In this document: positions 1 through 7,127 of the stretch, piece after piece
Numbering within the stretch: position 1 is the stretch's first letter
Layout: every line of letters begins with the position of its first letter
Virus record (IMG/VR): IMGVR_UViG_2778261122_000005
Location: 1-12,956 of that record
From: a virus
Lineage: Duplodnaviria; Heunggongvirae; Uroviricota; Caudoviricetes
Direction: 5' to 3' (one strand)
DNA: 12,956 nucleotides
Translations under genes and position numbers: made by a program
The notes under the pieces: model-generated
The model's input: the letters and a program-made list of their open reading frames with translations, nothing else
Databases searched by the model: none
What the model was told of the DNA's origin: nothing

Positions 1-161
1 AGTTTGCTCCTGCCATAACGTGAAGAAGCAATGACCTGGTGGTCCGTGACTTCCCTACGCTGGCATTATCCAGATCAGGTGATACGGGTATTTCTTACTA
101 TTTTTTGTTATCAGTTGATAATTAATAAGTTTTTCAGCACAGAAGAATTAAAAACCTCAAA

Positions 162-231
162 ACTGACCACACAACTGACCACACATTTCGTTGAAGCTCT
201 ACGAACAACGACGAACAATAACAAACAAAAG
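162..231. repeat. Tandem 12-bp repeat ACTGACCACACA x2 (162..185) followed by 10-bp-phased ACGAACAA repeats (201..231)
   Basis: Direct reading of the sequence. A similar phased CGAACAA motif recurs at ~7321..7350 upstream of the plus-strand gene. Confidence 0.5.
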
Positions 232-272
232 GGAAATTTGCTGGCGGTTTTGCTTAACCGTTATCATTTTCC

Positions 273-358
273 GGCTATCCGCCATGAAGCTGGTGGATGT
301 TTTTTCTATGCAGATTTGCATAGTTCCAAATGAGGCTGGTAGATGATCACGGATAGCC
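273..358. repeat. Compound dyad element: outer inverted repeats GGCTATCCG / CGGATAGCC, inner direct repeats GCTGGTGGATG / GCTGGTAGATG, central 18-bp palindrome CTATGCAGATTTGCATAG
   Basis: Seen in sequence. Outer inverted repeats at ~273..281 and ~350..358, central palindrome at ~306..323. No canonical U-tract on either strand, so it is more likely a protein-binding or recombination site than a terminator. Confidence 0.45.
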
Positions 359-524
359 CGTTATGGGAATCCCCATATCGGCATCACGCCCACCAGCGCG
401 ACGCATTTTTTTTAATTTCGCGGGTGTAAAAATTTGACGAGGCGTGCGGTCCCATAAGCAATAGGTTGTAGGGATTTCGATCCCCCCTCCTGAATGCAAT
501 TTTTCGTATATATATACAAAACAG

Positions 525-680
525 TGCGGGTTATGCGGGTTAGCGGGTTATCTTCGCGTGCTAAGTATTTTTTATTCTTTAATATCAATGTGTTAAAAAA
601 CAACGTATTTAAATATCAGCCAGAATGTAACCCGCAAGACATTCAAAATAACCCGCAAACACCCCTCAAATAACCCGCAA
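525..680. repeat. Iteron cluster B (distal, crr-like): three contiguous TGCGGGTTA repeats, an AT-rich spacer, then three TAACCCGCA repeats at ~21-bp spacing
   Basis: Seen in sequence: (T/A)GCGGGTTA at 525..533, 534..542 and 542..550; AT-rich spacer ~551..627 preceded by a (TA)n run at ~507..517; TAACCCGCA at ~628, ~648 and ~671. Same 9-mer as cluster A, in mirrored arrangement. Confidence 0.6.
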
Positions 681-3049: not shown

Positions 3050-3490
3050 TCAGTCATCATCGCCATACATCCAGTCGTTACGGTGTGCTGCCCGTTCTTC
3101 CTGATCGCGATACATGCCCGCCTTACGGTTCGCTTTCGTGGCTGGATCTTCCCGTGTCGTCTTACGGTTGTGGCACGTCTGACACAATGCCTGGTGATTC
3201 CACTCAGGCCAGAAGAGAACATCACCGCCGCCATTGATGGGGATAATGTGATCCACCACAAAGGCTGGCGTATAAATACCCTCAGCCAGACAACGCACAC
3301 ATAACGGATTTTTTTTCAGGTACATGGCGCGGTATTTGTCCCACTGTCGGGAATACCCGCGCGCGCGGCGGTGTCCCCGTCTGGCATCCTCTGCACGCCA
3401 TGCAGCCCGCCTGTGCTCTTCACACTTGCCGGACTTCACGCGCTTATTACAGCCCGGCTCAGTGCATCGCCTTAATGGTTGCCATGGCAT
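3050..3490 (-). CDS. HNH endonuclease (terminase-associated)
   Basis: 146-aa protein with Cys pairs and HNH signature (..VVDHIIPINGGG..NHQALCQTCHNRKT). Start overlaps the stop of the upstream connector gene. Typical position upstream of cos/terS. Confidence 0.85.
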   Translation of the reverse strand: MPWQPLRRCTEPGCNKRVKSGKCEEHRRAAWRAEDARRGHRRARGYSRQWDKYRAMYLKKNPLCVRCLAEGIYTPAFVVDHIIPINGGGDVLFWPEWNHQALCQTCHNRKTTREDPATKANRKAGMYRDQEERAAHRNDWMYGDDD

Positions 3491-3786
3491 CAGTACACCC
3501 CCACATCACGATAAACCGACCAGAGCGCGGAAATCGTCAGGGGAATTTCTTTTGTATCGGTATCGCCAAGCGTTGTCCGGTACTCGTACAGTTGCGAGAT
3601 GTACATCAGGCAACCAATTTTTATTGCAGGGGTAAATTCCAGGCCGTCATCAAAACGCCTGCCAATATGCTTCTGGCATACCTCCAGCGCCGCACTTATG
3701 TATGCCTGAATCAGTGTGTCTTCTGTGTTACCATCTATGCGGCAGTGAAGTTTGGCCTCTTCCAGGGTTATTTTTTCTGCTGTCAT
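3490..3786 (-). CDS. Head-tail connector protein (gp6-like, DNA-packaging family)
   Basis: 98-aa protein; N-terminus MTAEKITLEEAKLHCRIDGNTEDTLIQAYISAA matches the conserved pattern of gp6-like connector proteins. ATGA overlap with the upstream gene. Confidence 0.7.
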   Translation of the reverse strand: MTAEKITLEEAKLHCRIDGNTEDTLIQAYISAALEVCQKHIGRRFDDGLEFTPAIKIGCLMYISQLYEYRTTLGDTDTKEIPLTISALWSVYRDVGVY

Positions 3787-4121
3787 TTTTCTGTACCCAC
3801 CTTTGCCAGAATTTCCAGCCGGGTTCTTTTCGCATCAGGTAAGGGGATCCCGATGATATTAAGCGTGCTCCCGGCAAAAGCGCCGGTAAGCATTTTCAGG
3901 CGACTGGCGGCGGATATGTCGCCACGATAGCGAACCCATACCCGAATCGTTGCAGGTGCGGTTTCTGCGCCTGCGGTCAGTAATTCCCGTCCGCTGATCC
4001 CCTTGACCTCTGCCCAGATGGTTTCCCCTTCCGTCCATATCTGCTGGATCGCACCTGACGGCAGGCGCTGTGTGGTAAATGTCATAATCGTCACCCGGTC
4101 CCGCATCTTTCCGGCTATCAT
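3783..4121 (-). CDS. Head closure / head-tail adaptor protein (SPP1 gp16-like)
   Basis: 112-aa protein with the IRxWVRYRGDI..-type motif typical of head-tail joining proteins. ATGA overlap with the portal stop. An alternative ATG at 4106 is possible. Confidence 0.65.
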   Translation of the reverse strand: MIAGKMRDRVTIMTFTTQRLPSGAIQQIWTEGETIWAEVKGISGRELLTAGAETAPATIRVWVRYRGDISAASRLKMLTGAFAGSTLNIIGIPLPDAKRTRLEILAKVGTEK

Positions 4122-5341
4122 TCGTCACCGCCCTTACTGTTCTTGCTGATTGTCACTTCCTGCTTCCATGCCTGGCTGAACTCGTCGCCACCTTCACGCG
4201 GCGGCATTCCCTCACGCTCACGGGCTTCGTTCGGATTCATGATCCCGTTCTTAATCCCTTTCTCATACGTGGCGTAACGTTCGGTAGGGGTGGCGCGTAA
4301 TAAATCGGCTGAATCAAACTCAACCAGATAACGGGTACCAGGTACGGGAGAAGCCACCAGCAAAGCGGCCTTGATTTGCTGTTCGAAGTTCGCCAGCCAC
4401 GGGCGCATTGTCATGGTCAGAAACGCACGGCTTGCCTCGCTGAAATTGCTGTAGGTGCTGTTGCTGTATTCCTGCAGAAAAATAGGCGATACGTTGAACA
4501 TGCGGGCGATGTCTTCAATGGAGAAGCGACGGGAGGCCAGCCATTCCGCATCCTGGTTACTCATTCCCAGTTGCTTGTAATCCATGCCCCCTTCAAGAAT
4601 TGGCGTTTTTCCGGCATTTTTCGCCCCCTTGTAGCGTTCCAGAGCATCTAATGCCTGTTTACCTTTCACGCCGTCCAGCCATTCACCTGACGTGATAATC
4701 CCTGCCGCCATCATGCCATCTTTCATAATGCTGGCTCCGTGGCGCTGTTGAGCAAGACCAAGCCCCAGCGCCTCACGGCAAATCGTGACAGGGGAGCGCC
4801 CCAGAAAGCCATCATCCGAGGCATAGCGGAGATGCAGAACTTCTTCCTGTAAATACGTGCGCACCGTTCCTGTATAGGGTTCGGTGATGGTATAGCGGTA
4901 TTTGTGTGCGCCTGTGCGTTCCGGTACAACACACCCCGGCGCATAAGGATGAAGTGATTTTGGCTGTCCGTCCCGCCCCCACTCAATAACCGCATAGGCG
5001 TTACCGTTCAGCAGGCAGTGACGCATCATTGTGCGTTTAAACTGGTAAGGTGTCTGGCATGAATTAGGCTGCTCATTCAGCAGAATATCTACCGGGTGAC
5101 TGTCCAGCCATTCCCGCGCCTCTCTGCCCTTATCATTGCGTACAAGATACAGGTAACACGGCATCGTGGCCACCGCCTCAGAGATAACAGAAACCGCGTT
5201 CATCACAGCAGGCAATGATTCAGCCGTCCCGGCAGAAACATATTCTCCAGATCCGGTATTTGGTACGCCGGACAGCGCCAGAAAATCATCAATGGACAGG
5301 TTACGCTGCTCGCTTTTTTTACGACTAAAAGGCCACCACAT
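4118..5341 (-). CDS. Portal protein, HK97 family
   Basis: Sequence reads as an HK97-family portal. Start chosen at ATG 5341 (MWWPFSRKK...), one nucleotide after the protease stop. The track ORF start at 5431 is a TTG and would overlap the protease by ~90 nt. Confidence 0.85.
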   Translation of the reverse strand: MWWPFSRKKSEQRNLSIDDFLALSGVPNTGSGEYVSAGTAESLPAVMNAVSVISEAVATMPCYLYLVRNDKGREAREWLDSHPVDILLNEQPNSCQTPYQFKRTMMRHCLLNGNAYAVIEWGRDGQPKSLHPYAPGCVVPERTGAHKYRYTITEPYTGTVRTYLQEEVLHLRYASDDGFLGRSPVTICREALGLGLAQQRHGASIMKDGMMAAGIITSGEWLDGVKGKQALDALERYKGAKNAGKTPILEGGMDYKQLGMSNQDAEWLASRRFSIEDIARMFNVSPIFLQEYSNSTYSNFSEASRAFLTMTMRPWLANFEQQIKAALLVASPVPGTRYLVEFDSADLLRATPTERYATYEKGIKNGIMNPNEAREREGMPPREGGDEFSQAWKQEVTISKNSKGGDE

Positions 5342-5342
5342 A

Positions 5343-5903
5343 TCACAACCCCGCCAGCTCAGCCCAGCGATGACGATTATTTCCTGTCGGACGTAATTCG
5401 GGGTGCTGTGCAAACAACGAACGGTGGGCAATCTCCACGCCAGATTCTGGATAAGCAGGCATCGACGTTATTGTGATTTCTCGGAGTTCAGCGGCGGTTA
5501 CGGTACGCAGATACGGTTTTTGCGCGATACTCCACTCCTCGCATAATGCGCGAAAACCAAAGCTCATTCCTGTAATGTCGCCACGCTCCACCAGCGTAAG
5601 CACATCTTTTCCAAGCTGGGTATCCGGCGGTGTCAGCTCAAAACGTAACCCGGTGTTATCCTCAGTCAGTACCAGAGTGCCGGATTTGGTGCGCCCCAGC
5701 AGTTGGGTATAGTCATGCTCATACAGGCAGCGCACATCATTACCCGCCGCCAGATAGTCAGCAAAAGCCCCCGGCGTGAACTGTTCGCGGAATTCGTCCC
5801 AGATAATTTCTGAAAGGCTGTTCCAGCGAACGGCATAACCCACCAGCTTTTTATTGCTGGCGGTCAGTTCAGATGTGCGGATTTCAAAATCGGTGTTTTT
5901 CAT
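5343..5903 (-). CDS. Prohead protease, HK97 family
   Basis: 186-aa protein with conserved prohead protease motifs (GYAVRWN..., FTPGAF, ...HD..., TGMSFGF). ATG at 5903. Confidence 0.8.
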   Translation of the reverse strand: MKNTDFEIRTSELTASNKKLVGYAVRWNSLSEIIWDEFREQFTPGAFADYLAAGNDVRCLYEHDYTQLLGRTKSGTLVLTEDNTGLRFELTPPDTQLGKDVLTLVERGDITGMSFGFRALCEEWSIAQKPYLRTVTAAELREITITSMPAYPESGVEIAHRSLFAQHPELRPTGNNRHRWAELAGL

Positions 5904-5957: not shown

Positions 5958-7127
5958 CTAGCCAGCTTTCATTTCCAGAATTTTGATGGCGTTTGAATCC
6001 ACCACACCACCGCCCAGATATTTATCCGTGTGGACCTTGTAGAATCCGGGTTCAGTAATGTTGTCCGGTCGGGTGCGAATCCCTGTTACATGATCAACGA
6101 TGAAATAACCACGACTGAAATCGCCAACCGCCAGCGGTGCTTTTCCTGCGCCGATGTCCGGCATGGACTCCAGGCAGTAAACAGGACGACCAAGCAACAT
6201 ATCCGGCGCACCTTCTTTAAGGCTGTCGCGCCAGATATAATCGCCGTTCTCATTTTTCAGCTTCTGTAGTGTCCCTGCCGTGCCCGAGTTCATCACCCAG
6301 ACGGCATTTTTGCGGTATTTCGCTTTCAGCTTGTAGAGAATGTCGATCAGTTCGTCCGCTGTAATGGCGGTTCCACTTGCCGCTACCATTTTTTCAATGG
6401 TGCCAAAAGCGCGGGTTTTGTCACTGGTCGCCGCACGGGTGTAAGCCATGAATCCTTTCGGCTTGCCGTTACCGTCGCCATTAACAAAATCATCCTCTTC
6501 GGTGCTGGCGAACGTGTCGGCAATTTCGGAGGATAACCAGCCCAGAATATCCACCTCTGAAAAATCCAGGATTTCCTGCGTGGTTTTCGGGTAGGCGTAG
6601 ATCGGATTCAGCTTGATGGTTACGCGTTCAATTTTCGGGGTGTTGGTTTCGCTGCGCGCGCTGCCTTCTGTGCCTCTTCCTACAGTTGCGCCGCCAGTGG
6701 AAACCAGTTTCTGAAACTCATTTGATTTTGCGGTCTTCACGGTCGCGATCACGCGCATAACACTGTCATCCTGTAGCTGGCGCATGACTTCGCGATCAAG
6801 CTCAGGAATTACGGTATATCCGCCATCCCTGCCGCTGTCAGTGCTGGTGGACAGTGATCGCACATCTCCGGTTACGATATAGTTACGCAATTCATCAGAT
6901 GATAATTTCTGGATACTCGTTCCTGGCTTGCTGCGTTCTTCATCAGCCACAGACTCGAGGCGGGAAATTTCTGTGTCGAGGGAATCGGCTTTTGCACGCA
7001 GTTCATCAAACTGTTTGCCTTCGTCATCGTTCAGGCTGCGGTTTTCACTGTCTGCTTTTTCCAGCAGGGATCGCATCTGGTTTTTCAGGGCGGTTTTTTG
7101 CTGGCGGAGTTCGATTAATTTCTTCAT
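5958..7127 (-). CDS. Major capsid protein, HK97 fold, with N-terminal coiled-coil (scaffold/delta-like) region
   Basis: 389-aa protein; the N-terminal ~100 aa are charged and coiled-coil-like (LRQQKTALKNQMRSLLEKAD...ELRAKADSLDTEISRLESV), followed by a region reading as an HK97-type capsid fold. First gene of the head operon. Confidence 0.85.
   Translation of the reverse strand: MKKLIELRQQKTALKNQMRSLLEKADSENRSLNDDEGKQFDELRAKADSLDTEISRLESVADEERSKPGTSIQKLSSDELRNYIVTGDVRSLSTSTDSGRDGGYTVIPELDREVMRQLQDDSVMRVIATVKTAKSNEFQKLVSTGGATVGRGTEGSARSETNTPKIERVTIKLNPIYAYPKTTQEILDFSEVDILGWLSSEIADTFASTEEDDFVNGDGNGKPKGFMAYTRAATSDKTRAFGTIEKMVAASGTAITADELIDILYKLKAKYRKNAVWVMNSGTAGTLQKLKNENGDYIWRDSLKEGAPDMLLGRPVYCLESMPDIGAGKAPLAVGDFSRGYFIVDHVTGIRTRPDNITEPGFYKVHTDKYLGGGVVDSNAIKILEMKAG

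What the first reader, a model, noticed from the sequence alone, without database searches (positions are those of the whole stretch)
273..358. Nested dyad element near the island end, possibly a recombination or attachment site
Outer 9-bp inverted repeats (GGCTATCCG / CGGATAGCC) enclose inner 11-bp direct repeats and a central 18-bp near-palindrome (CTATGCAGATTTGCATAG). It has no terminator-like U-tract, so it resembles a protein-binding site such as an integrase core with arm sites, a resolution site, or a regulator site. It lies in a region with no convincing coding sequence, just beyond iteron cluster B.
Basis: seen in the sequence. Interest (0 to 1): 0.45.

Follow-up and report, generated by a model that had tools for sequence, protein, structure and literature searches.

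The report
Chi-bearing spacer, not attachment site
The nested repeat is real, but it is not where this E. coli phage-satellite island integrates: its inner repeats are copies of Chi, the host recombination hotspot, in a variable non-coding spacer that many such islands share next to their true attachment site.

Summary
The features exist as described: a 9-bp inverted repeat (273-281/350-358), 16-nt direct repeats (284-299/330-345, 14/16 identical) and a hairpin (306-323). This is not the attachment site.

The window is the left end of a ~15-kb capsid-forming PICI inserted in the thiM TPP riboswitch. The att core is the 14-bp repeat ATACGGGTATTTCT (82-95). The arm repeats lie at 163-228.

The dyad lies inside the island, in a non-coding module that 879 of 5,426 complete E. 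coli genomes share at least in part. That module adjoins at least 9 different att arms and 6 different right-hand flanks.

The inner direct repeats are Chi (GCTGGTGG, 289-296) and a decayed copy (335-342). A third Chi on the other strand (390-397) faces them across a 24-bp palindrome (358-381).

The nested shape arises because two alternative Chi-leader units lie in tandem: unit A carries GGCTATCCG and unit B carries the hairpin. Only 7 genomes have this arrangement.

Chi is the commonest octamer in these islands, at about 1 per kb.

Best reading: a Chi-bearing linker for homologous recombination and RecBCD control, not a site-specific recombination site. The function is inferred, not shown.

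The parts
82..95 (.). True att core (context): the 14-bp direct repeat ATACGGGTATTTCT, inside the thiM TPP riboswitch. Island DNA starts at 96.
   Evidence: Present once in the K-12 empty site (L002). Present at both ends of the islands in L001, L027 and L041. The TPP riboswitch hit at 35-169 (- strand) scores only 36.8 bits against a gathering score of 54.3.
163..228 (+). Arm repeats of the attachment region (context): CTGACCACAC x2 (163-172, 175-184), ACGAACAA x2 (201-208, 211-218) and ACAAACAA (221-228).
   Evidence: The same ~70 bp recurs in direct orientation next to the integrase gene at the far end (L001 30186-30258; also L027 and L041). That these are integrase arm-type sites is inferred.
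254..299 (+). Unit A, a Chi-leader: TTAACCGTTATCATTTTCCGGCTATCCGCCATGAAGCTGGTGGATG. It contains the left outer arm (273-281) and direct repeat 1 (284-299).
   Evidence: This is the most widespread piece. Many E. coli hits cover only 254-301. It adjoins several unrelated att arms.
289..296 (+). Perfect Chi octamer GCTGGTGG on the top strand. It is active for RecBCD travelling right to left.
   Evidence: Intact in all three A+B dyads compared and in most module variants. The active direction follows from established Chi/RecBCD biology, as restated in PMC12315714.
300..329 (+). Core of unit B: T6 (300-305), hairpin CTATGCAGATTTGCATAG (306-323) and TTCCAA (324-329).
   Evidence: Absent from most relatives, where a 46-bp gap takes its place. 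Present alone, without unit A, in L103 and ETEC1748. The hairpin is identical at the thiM, clpS and yifB sites.
330..345 (+). Direct repeat 2, ATGAGGCTGGTAGATG. It holds a decayed Chi (GCTGGTAG, 335-342).
   Evidence: The same position is a perfect Chi in STEC383, L103 and ETEC1748, and is GTTGGTGG in TUM1881.
350..358 (+). Right outer arm CGGATAGCC. The conserved core is CGGATA.
   Evidence: One compensatory change is seen (L040: TATCTG...CAGATA; L031 is a G.T intermediate). L030 lacks this arm altogether.
358..381 (.). 24-bp palindrome CCGTTATGGGAATCCCCATATCGG. It is the centre of the module's quasi-symmetry and the point where Chi polarity switches.
   Evidence: Two compensatory pair changes occur in L040 and L106. 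The polarity switch is shown.
390..397 (-). Perfect Chi octamer on the bottom strand. It is active for RecBCD travelling left to right.
   Evidence: Present in 5 of 8 further module variants that were found without using this Chi in the search pattern.
276..305 (+). Terminator-like hairpin (TATCCGCCA / TGGTGGATG, 9 pairs including G.T) followed by T6.
   Evidence: The T-run belongs to unit B, so the feature is missing from the common A-only form.

Best explanation
The dyad is a rare long form of a conserved non-coding end module of E. coli phage-inducible chromosomal islands (PICIs). It is not an att or resolution site.

Two alternative short units each end in ATGAAGCTGGTGGATG, which contains Chi. 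Unit A carries GGCTATCCG and unit B carries the TGCA hairpin. In this island they lie in tandem. That duplicates the Chi-containing 16-mer and so produces the 'inner direct repeats'. It also places the hairpin between the two halves of a weakly conserved inverted repeat.

The working parts are proposed to be the Chi octamers: one perfect and one decayed on the top strand (289-296, 335-342), and one perfect on the bottom strand (390-397). They face each other across a 24-bp palindrome.

Proposed mechanism (inferred). RecBCD degrading linear or broken island DNA is switched at these sites from nuclease to RecA loader, whichever way it travels. That would protect a replicon with no recognisable anti-RecBCD or recombinase gene. 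It would also make this ~110-150-bp shared segment a preferred crossover point at which integration arms and island backbones are reassorted.

Shown: the anatomy, the Chi identity, the Chi excess, the att and cos positions, and the reassortment.
Inferred: RecBCD action at these sites and any role for the dyads.
For: Position.
- The att core and arm repeats map to 82-95 and 163-228, not to the dyad.
- The cos sites lie elsewhere. Lambda-type cosN is 1.3-1.7 kb away in classical PICIs. The termini of the particle-derived cf-PICI record LR881103.1 align to window 2846/2847.

Chi.
- The repeats contain exact Chi.
- The window has 16 Chi against 0.49 expected. The L001 island has 14 in 15.25 kb against 2 in 15.1 kb of flanking chromosome.
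- In 25 dereplicated PICI contigs Chi is the commonest of 29,835 octamers: 240 in 251 kb against 25 expected under an order-3 Markov model. The E. coli average is 1 per 4.6 kb (PMC12315714).
- No recombinase or Gam-like Pfam domain was found in the window's ORFs.
- Lambdoid phages without a Rec module are known to be Chi-rich (PMC12315714; PMC8791490).
- All 24 unique Chi contexts within 600 bp left of the palindrome are on the top strand. Of 32 within 2 kb to the right, 26 are on the bottom strand.

Mosaic structure.
- The module joins at least 9 arm types to 6 right-flank types in at least 17 combinations.
- Indels of 46 to about 430 bp are bounded by GCTGGTGGAT repeats.
- A-only, B-only and A+B forms all exist.
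- The full dyad is found in only 7 of 5,426 complete genomes.
Against: - No experiment shows RecBCD acting here.
- Each Chi in the module is kept in only about 75-80% of variants found through the other one. That is no better than the neighbouring bases, so selection on these particular Chi copies is not demonstrated.
- The contig set was collected with patterns that contain Chi, which inflates counts by one or two per contig. The contigs are also related to one another.
- Chi orientation does not fit simple protection of virion ends. The nearest correctly oriented Chi is 1.6-2.5 kb from either cos type.
- Compensatory changes in both dyads point to some constraint on base-pairing or on a symmetric binding site. 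The Chi model does not explain that.
- The hairpin's perfect conservation is also unexplained.
Confidence: 0.45

Rival explanations
1. Accessory part of attP. The dyads would bind a recombination directionality factor (an AlpA/Xis-type protein) or a host bending protein, and so extend the integrase-distal arm of the intasome.
For: The module always lies directly inside the integrase-distal arm. It is dense in short dyads. Both dyads show changes on both half-sites in one lineage. The cf-PICI vB_KppS-Ant, which has a different integrase and arm repeats, lacks the module.
Against: It adjoins at least 9 unrelated arm sequences. Its distance to the core and its internal spacing vary by 0 to about 430 bp, and unit A can be replaced by unit B. 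That is hard to reconcile with a fixed nucleoprotein architecture. None of its motifs recurs in the other arm or elsewhere in the window. It starts about 160 bp from the core, beyond the repeats shared by both arms.
Confidence: 0.15
2. An RNA or transcription-level element: a terminator or insulator at the end of the island's single long operon, or a small structured RNA.
For: Hairpins are present, with some covariation. The G.T intermediates pair only on the + strand. A hairpin followed by T6 lies on the + strand at 276-305. The module sits between the last gene (terL, which ends at 760) and the host gene thiM.
Against: There is no Rfam match in this window or in four relatives. No promoter-like site was found in the module. 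The island's genes are on the - strand, where none of the hairpins is followed by a U-run. The only U-tract is on the other strand and is absent from the common A-only form.
Confidence: 0.12
3. No function of its own. It would be a neutral scar of slippage and unequal crossing-over in a hypervariable spacer, conserved only because these islands diverged recently, with the Chi copies hitch-hiking.
For: The full dyad is very rare (7 of 5,426 genomes). There are many deletion and insertion variants, including ones that lack either arm, the hairpin or either Chi. A 9-bp inverted repeat is expected by chance.
Against: The same ~110 bp persists across at least 17 combinations of unrelated flanks. 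Both dyads keep their symmetry through compensatory changes. Chi is the single commonest octamer of these islands.
Confidence: 0.2

Closest known systems
Chi hotspots in Chi-rich lambdoid phages that lack a recombination module (phage LLS class; Genome Res 2025, PMC12315714)
   Same: The octamer is the same exact GCTGGTGG. It is in large excess: about 1 per kb here, against 1 per 1.86 kb in LLS and 1 per 4.6 kb in E. coli. It is the top-ranked octamer, as in phage MD8. No recombinase or Gam domain was detected. In the related cf-PICI vB_KppS-Ant all 6 Chi are on one strand.
   Different: The host element is a phage satellite, which that paper does not cover. In this module the Chi copies are in both orientations, facing each other across a palindrome, rather than being clustered in one orientation near the free cos end.
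Lambda-type attP arms (integrase arm-type, Xis, IHF and Fis sites)
   Same: It is non-coding, repeat-rich DNA beside the crossover core, on the side away from int.
   Different: The core and the repeats shared by both arms are at 82-228. The dyad's motifs are not shared between arms. Its spacing is not fixed, and it is independent of the arm or integrase type.
Conserved boundary or linker sequences between exchangeable modules of mosaic phage genomes
   Same: A short conserved segment lies between two segments that reassort freely.
   Different: Here the linker carries Chi in both orientations, which suggests a way to favour crossover at that point. This has not been tested.
Chi polarity switch at the dif/terminus region of the E. 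coli chromosome
   Same: Top-strand Chi lie on the left and bottom-strand Chi on the right, so RecBCD moving away from the centre meets active Chi in both directions.
   Different: The scale is about 100 bp to 2 kb. No dif-like XerCD site is evident (judged by eye only). The link to replication direction is only weakly supported (Fisher p = 0.046).

Membership tests
Tyrosine-integrase attachment site (att core) | The same short sequence is present at both island ends and once in the unoccupied chromosomal site. | tested here: not met
   Met by ATACGGGTATTTCT at 82-95, not by anything in 273-358.
Tyrosine-integrase attachment site (arm-type sites) | A repeated motif is present in both arms of attP. 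| tested here: not met
   CTGACCACAC and ACGAACAA recur in both arms. GGCTATCCG, the hairpin and the 24-bp palindrome occur only here.
Chi (crossover hotspot instigator) | An exact 5'-GCTGGTGG-3' octamer. | tested here: met
   289-296 on the + strand and 390-397 on the - strand. 335-342 is a one-mismatch copy.
Chi (crossover hotspot instigator) | Statistical excess of the octamer in the replicon, as in Chi-using genomes. | tested here: met
   16 observed against 0.49 expected in the window. Rank 1 of 29,835 octamers in 25 PICI contigs, with the ascertainment caveat stated in the report.
Chi (crossover hotspot instigator) | Orientation-dependent attenuation of RecBCD and loading of RecA. | not testable with these tools
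   Needs RecBCD biochemistry or genetics.
Cohesive-end (cos) packaging site | It coincides with the virion DNA termini or with a cosN sequence. | tested here: not met
   Lambda cosN lies 1.3-1.7 kb from the module in classical PICIs. The termini of LR881103.1 align to window 2846/2847, upstream of terS.
PICI replication origin | Two sets of Rep iterons flank an AT-rich stretch. | tested here: not met
   The TAACCCGCA iterons are at 525-680 and 9008-9160, and none lies in 254-400. The definition is taken from PMC6092414.
Intrinsic terminator | A GC-rich hairpin directly followed by a U-run on the transcribed strand. | tested here: inconclusive
   The + strand has a hairpin at 276-299 followed by T6. 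It is on the non-coding strand of the operon and is absent from most relatives.
Known RNA families (Rfam 15) | A covariance-model match. | tested here: not met
   Only the truncated TPP riboswitch matches, at 35-169. Nothing matches in 250-500 or in the relatives' spacers.
Capsid-forming PICI (the island that carries the element) | [quoted passage not shown] | tested here: met
   The integrase and the ~15.3-kb size come from the near-identical island L001. The criteria are taken from 10.1101/2025.02.11.637232. The window itself stops before the integrase.

The most novel reading that the evidence does not exclude
The 24-bp palindrome (358-381) with its outward-active Chi sites marks a programmed place where double-strand ends arise in the circular island. 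This could be the point where replication forks converge or where rolling-circle tails begin. The Chi/hairpin units on either side, including this dyad, would be there to hand those ends to RecA instead of letting RecBCD destroy the replicon. That would make it a miniature, dif-like Chi polarity switch in a 15-kb satellite.
Probability: 0.1. Interest if true: 0.6.

Novelty: new member of a known kind. Interest (0 to 1): 0.3.

Why it matters
For this finding, the result is mainly a correction: the island's attachment site is elsewhere, and the 'nested dyad' is a rare structural variant of a shared spacer.

The wider observation may be useful.
- E. coli PICIs, both classical and capsid-forming, carry Chi at about four times the host density, and Chi is their commonest octamer.
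- A short Chi-bearing module sits exactly where integration arms and backbones are reassorted.
- If these Chi sites are active, satellites would join the recently described class of Chi-rich phages that use RecBCD rather than inhibit it.
- That would also suggest how these islands swap chromosomal integration sites so freely.

None of this has been tested experimentally.

Tried and rejected
- **cos site between the facing Chi sites.** Rejected. Lambda cosN and the cf-PICI termini map 1.3-2.5 kb away.
- **Relic of a protein gene.** Rejected. An ORF of 151 aa crosses the region in one relative, but it has only near-identical E. coli hits and no Pfam match, and the relatives differ by frameshifts.
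- **Outward or inward promoter.** None was found in the module by the scan. My own reading of both strands found only weak matches.
- **Operator repeated near regulatory genes.** No other copy of any of the three dyads occurs in the window.
- **Known RNA.** No Rfam match.
- **Host-derived att remnant.** Unlikely. The sequence is absent from island-free genomes such as K-12: only 879 of 5,426 genomes match.
- **Phage or plasmid origin.** There is no phage match. The one plasmid record is 10.8 kb and is probably an excised island.
- **IHF, CRP, XerCD/dif, DnaA and integron attC consensus sequences.** Compared by eye only. No convincing match, and not formally tested.
- **Replication-linked Chi polarity over the whole island.** Only a weak signal (p = 0.046).
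- **Accessory-gene hotspot to the left of the module.** In contigs with long left flanks, that DNA is mostly host sequence.
- **First species-wide scan with the left-hand pattern.** It found nothing. In the second scan the only named enterobacterial hit was E. albertii. The other hits are in unrelated taxa and were not examined.

Full report
**Context**

The window begins just upstream of the start codon of thiM, which reads leftward, out of the window. It runs into a chromosomal island whose genes all lie on the minus strand. Pfam identifies these genes:

| Gene | Coordinates |
|---|---|
| TerL | 760-2421 |
| TerS (Terminase_4) | 2405-2761 |
| HNH endonuclease | 3050-3490 |
| Head-tail connector | 3490-3786 |
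| Head completion protein | 3783-4121 |
| Portal | 4118-5431 |
| S78 prohead protease | 5343-5903 |
| Major capsid protein | 5958-7127 |
| PerC | 8225-8518 |
| SSB | 8522-8947 |
| DUF927 primase-like protein | 9184-11310 |
| DUF4222 | 11307-11621 |

- A 99.3% identical left end occurs in E. coli CEA106S. There the island runs from thiM to a tyrosine integrase next to rcnR and is about 15.3 kb long.
- This gene set, the size and the absence of tail and lysis genes match the published criteria for capsid-forming PICIs (10.1101/2025.02.11.637232).
- Beyond about position 8,000 the window differs from CEA106S, so the island is mosaic.

**Where the attachment site is**

- K-12 has thiM and rcnR adjacent. 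Comparing its empty site with the two junctions of the CEA106S island shows one 14-bp direct repeat, ATACGGGTATTTCT.
- In the window this repeat is at 82-95. The same core flanks two further complete islands, L027 and L041.
- The core lies inside the thiM TPP riboswitch. The Rfam model still aligns to 35-169 on the minus strand, but at 36.8 bits against a gathering score of 54.3, and with its 5' half replaced by island sequence.
- Inside the junction, a ~70-bp block (157-228) recurs in direct orientation beside the integrase gene at the far end. It carries CTGACCACAC twice and ACGAACAA-type repeats. I infer that these are the arm-type sites.
- The reported dyad therefore starts 178 bp inside the island, beyond the repeats shared by both arms.

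**The observation**

- A perfect 9-bp inverted repeat within 80 nt is unremarkable: 3.7 are expected per shuffled window. The 16-nt direct repeat is not expected by chance: 0.27 per window.
- Folding as single-stranded DNA is only modestly better than shuffles.
- The scan also found a plus-strand hairpin at 276-299 followed by T6. The statement that there is no U-tract therefore needs qualifying.

**What the repeats are**

- Direct repeat 1 contains GCTGGTGG (289-296), the Chi octamer.
- Direct repeat 2 contains GCTGGTAG, a one-mismatch copy.
- A third, perfect Chi lies on the other strand at 390-397.
- Between the top-strand and bottom-strand copies lies a 24-bp palindrome, CCGTTATGGGAATCCCCATATCGG (358-381).

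**Comparison with relatives**

- Part of 235-420 is found in 879 of 5,426 complete E. coli genomes, always in PICI-type islands. It is absent from the phage collection. It occurs in one 10.8-kb 'plasmid' that is probably an excised island.
- I collected further copies from IMG/VR and from E. coli genomes.
- The common form is TTAACCGTTATCATTTTCCGGCTATCCG-nn-ATGAAGCTGGTGGATGATCACGGATAAn-CCGTTATGGGGATCCCCATATCGG-CATCAnGC-CCACCAGC. Relative to it, the window has 46 extra bases: the T-run, the hairpin, TTCCAA and a second copy of the Chi-containing 16-mer.
- Other islands have the hairpin unit without the GGCTATCCG unit (L103, and ETEC1748 at the yifB site). Others have both units at a different chromosomal site (STEC383 at clpS, where repeat 2 is a perfect Chi). 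L030 has the hairpin but no right outer arm.
- I therefore read the nested dyad as two alternative 'Chi-leader' units, A and B, in tandem. Whether A+B is ancestral, with A-only forms arising by slippage between the repeats, or is itself a fusion, I cannot tell.
- The full form is present in 7 of 5,426 genomes.

**Constraint on the dyads**

- Only the inner 6 bp of the outer repeat are conserved.
- One lineage (L040) changes both sides of a pair in the outer repeat and two pairs in the palindrome. L031 is a G.T intermediate. L106 shares the palindrome variant.
- This is real but thin evidence, because it comes from essentially one lineage. It suggests that symmetry or base-pairing matters.
- The hairpin is identical in six of the seven sequences aligned. 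Those sequences come from the thiM, clpS and yifB sites.

**Chi excess**

- The window holds 16 Chi against 0.49 expected from shuffles.
- The CEA106S island holds 14 in 15.25 kb, and its 15.1-kb chromosomal flank holds 2.
- In 25 dereplicated PICI contigs Chi is the commonest of 29,835 octamers: 240 in 251 kb, against 25 expected under an order-3 Markov model. These contigs were collected with a Chi-containing pattern, which adds one or two Chi per contig, and they are related to each other.
- The E. coli average is one per 4.6 kb (PMC12315714).
- That paper describes lambdoid phages that lack a recombination module and are Chi-rich. It does not mention satellites.
- Two literature searches found no paper that links PICIs with Chi, apart from one general essay.
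- I found no recombinase or Gam-like domain in the window's ORFs.

**Chi polarity**

- Within 600 bp to the left of the palindrome, all 24 unique Chi contexts are on the top strand.
- Within 2 kb to the right, 26 of 32 are on the bottom strand.
- RecBCD moving away from the palindrome would therefore meet active Chi in both directions. The active direction rests on established Chi biology, as restated.
- The counts on the left are largely copies of the same repeat. Those on the right coincide with the coding strand. So the test is weaker than the numbers suggest.

**What the module is not**

- It is not cos. Lambda-type cosN lies 1.3-1.7 kb to the right in classical PICIs. The termini of vB_KppS-Ant (LR881103.1), a 16.5-kb 'phage' that is a cf-PICI sequenced from induced particles, align to window 2846/2847, between the HNH-adjacent ORF and terS. 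That record has 6 Chi, all on one strand, and lacks the module.
- It is not the origin. The TAACCCGCA iterons form the canonical origin 3' of the primase gene (9008-9160) and a second cluster at 525-680 (definition from PMC6092414).
- It matches no Rfam family.
- It has no promoter-like site.
- It is not coding.

**Reassortment**

I classified about 60 loci by the sequence immediately to the left and right of the module. This gave at least 9 arm types and 6 right-flank types in at least 17 combinations. For example, thiM arms occur with classical or cf-PICI backbones, and the cf-PICI flank occurs with six different arm types. The module is thus the shared junction between the integration end and the rest of the island.

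**Interpretation**

- The best-supported reading is a Chi-bearing linker. RecBCD acting on broken or linear island DNA would be converted at these sites to a recombination-promoting form, whichever way it travels. That would protect the replicon and favour crossovers at this shared segment.
- This accounts for the Chi identity, the Chi excess, the two orientations, the indels bounded by Chi-containing repeats, and the reassortment.
- It does not account for the compensatory changes in the dyads or for the conserved hairpin. The Chi orientation also does not protect either cos end closely.
- I put this reading at 0.45. The rivals are an attP accessory site (0.15), an RNA or terminator element (0.12) and a neutral scar (0.20).
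- A more novel reading is that the palindrome is a programmed site of DNA ends or fork convergence with a dif-like Chi switch. It is not excluded. Its only direct test was weak: bottom-strand to top-strand Chi counts were 26:9 between module and origin and 28:26 between origin and integrase end (p = 0.046).

**Verdict**

The att/resolution-site interpretation is not supported, beyond the element's position near the island end. The dyad itself is a rare variant and of low interest. The Chi-rich nature of E. coli PICIs and the Chi-flanked junction module are worth a modest follow-up.

Noticed in passing
window 35-169 (- strand), core 82-95: The island is integrated inside the thiM TPP riboswitch. 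The riboswitch's 5' half and the native promoter end up about 15 kb away, next to rcnR. The Rfam TPP model scores only 36.8 bits against a gathering score of 54.3. The regulation of thiMD in lysogens is probably altered.
   Followed up: partly
window 525-680 and 9008-9160: The same iteron (TAACCCGCA) forms two clusters about 8.4 kb apart. One is the expected origin, just 3' of the DUF927 primase gene. The second lies at the island end (3 inverted plus 3 direct copies around an AT-rich stretch), which recalls the ori/crr pair of P4. L015 and L030 have the same arrangement. Islands with TGTTCACC iterons do not.
   Followed up: partly
whole window; loci L006-L046: Chi (GCTGGTGG) occurs 16 times in 12,956 bases and is the commonest octamer in a set of 25 PICI contigs (0.96 per kb). 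I found no paper that reports this for phage satellites.
   Followed up: partly
window 2846/2847 (- strand): This is the likely cos terminus of this cf-PICI family. The linear record LR881103.1 (vB_KppS-Ant) ends at ...GGGGTGGGGGAGGTTTTCAGGAC and restarts 22 nt before terS. The homologous point lies between the small ORF after the HNH gene and terS.
   Followed up: partly
L102 (LR881103.1), whole record: A 16.5-kb entry deposited as 'Escherichia phage vB_KppS-Ant' has the gene content of a capsid-forming PICI. All six of its Chi sites are on the strand that is active for RecBCD entering from the end opposite the terminase genes.
   Followed up: no
window 400-495: A conserved GC-rich non-coding stretch begins at CGCGGGT and includes GGGAT-TTCG-ATCCC at 471-484. 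cf-PICIs and classical PICIs share it in two sequence types, with a possibly compensated hairpin (CCCATaagcaATGGG versus CCGGAagacgTCAGG). Its function is unknown.
   Followed up: no
window 31-333 (+ strand): RefSeq annotates a 100-aa 'hypothetical protein' here (WP_047662520.1 in CEA106S). The ORF runs through the riboswitch, the att core, the arm repeats and half of the dyad, and it has no Pfam match. It is probably a spurious call.
   Followed up: partly
L003 2150-2450; L004 3050-3620; L005 2230-2830: Classical PICIs carry arrays of hairpins with variable stems (often xxTGCA-loop-TGCAxx). Many hairpins are followed by a T-run and a GAAnAATCAnnnGTTA-like motif, and several lie next to Chi. 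The arrays sit between the module and the first gene. No Rfam family matches them.
   Followed up: no
L012 ~2078-2132, L006 ~3242, L026 ~1940, L043 ~1775: In classical PICIs a Chi or Chi-like run (GCTGGTGGTGG, or variants such as CTGGTGGTGG) lies about 35 nt from the lambda-type cosN, inside what should be the PICI-specific cosB region.
   Followed up: no
window ~8000-12956 versus L001: The window and the otherwise near-identical CEA106S island differ in the replication and regulation half (a 708-aa primase here against 608 aa there). No complete E. coli genome in the collection carries the whole window.
   Followed up: partly
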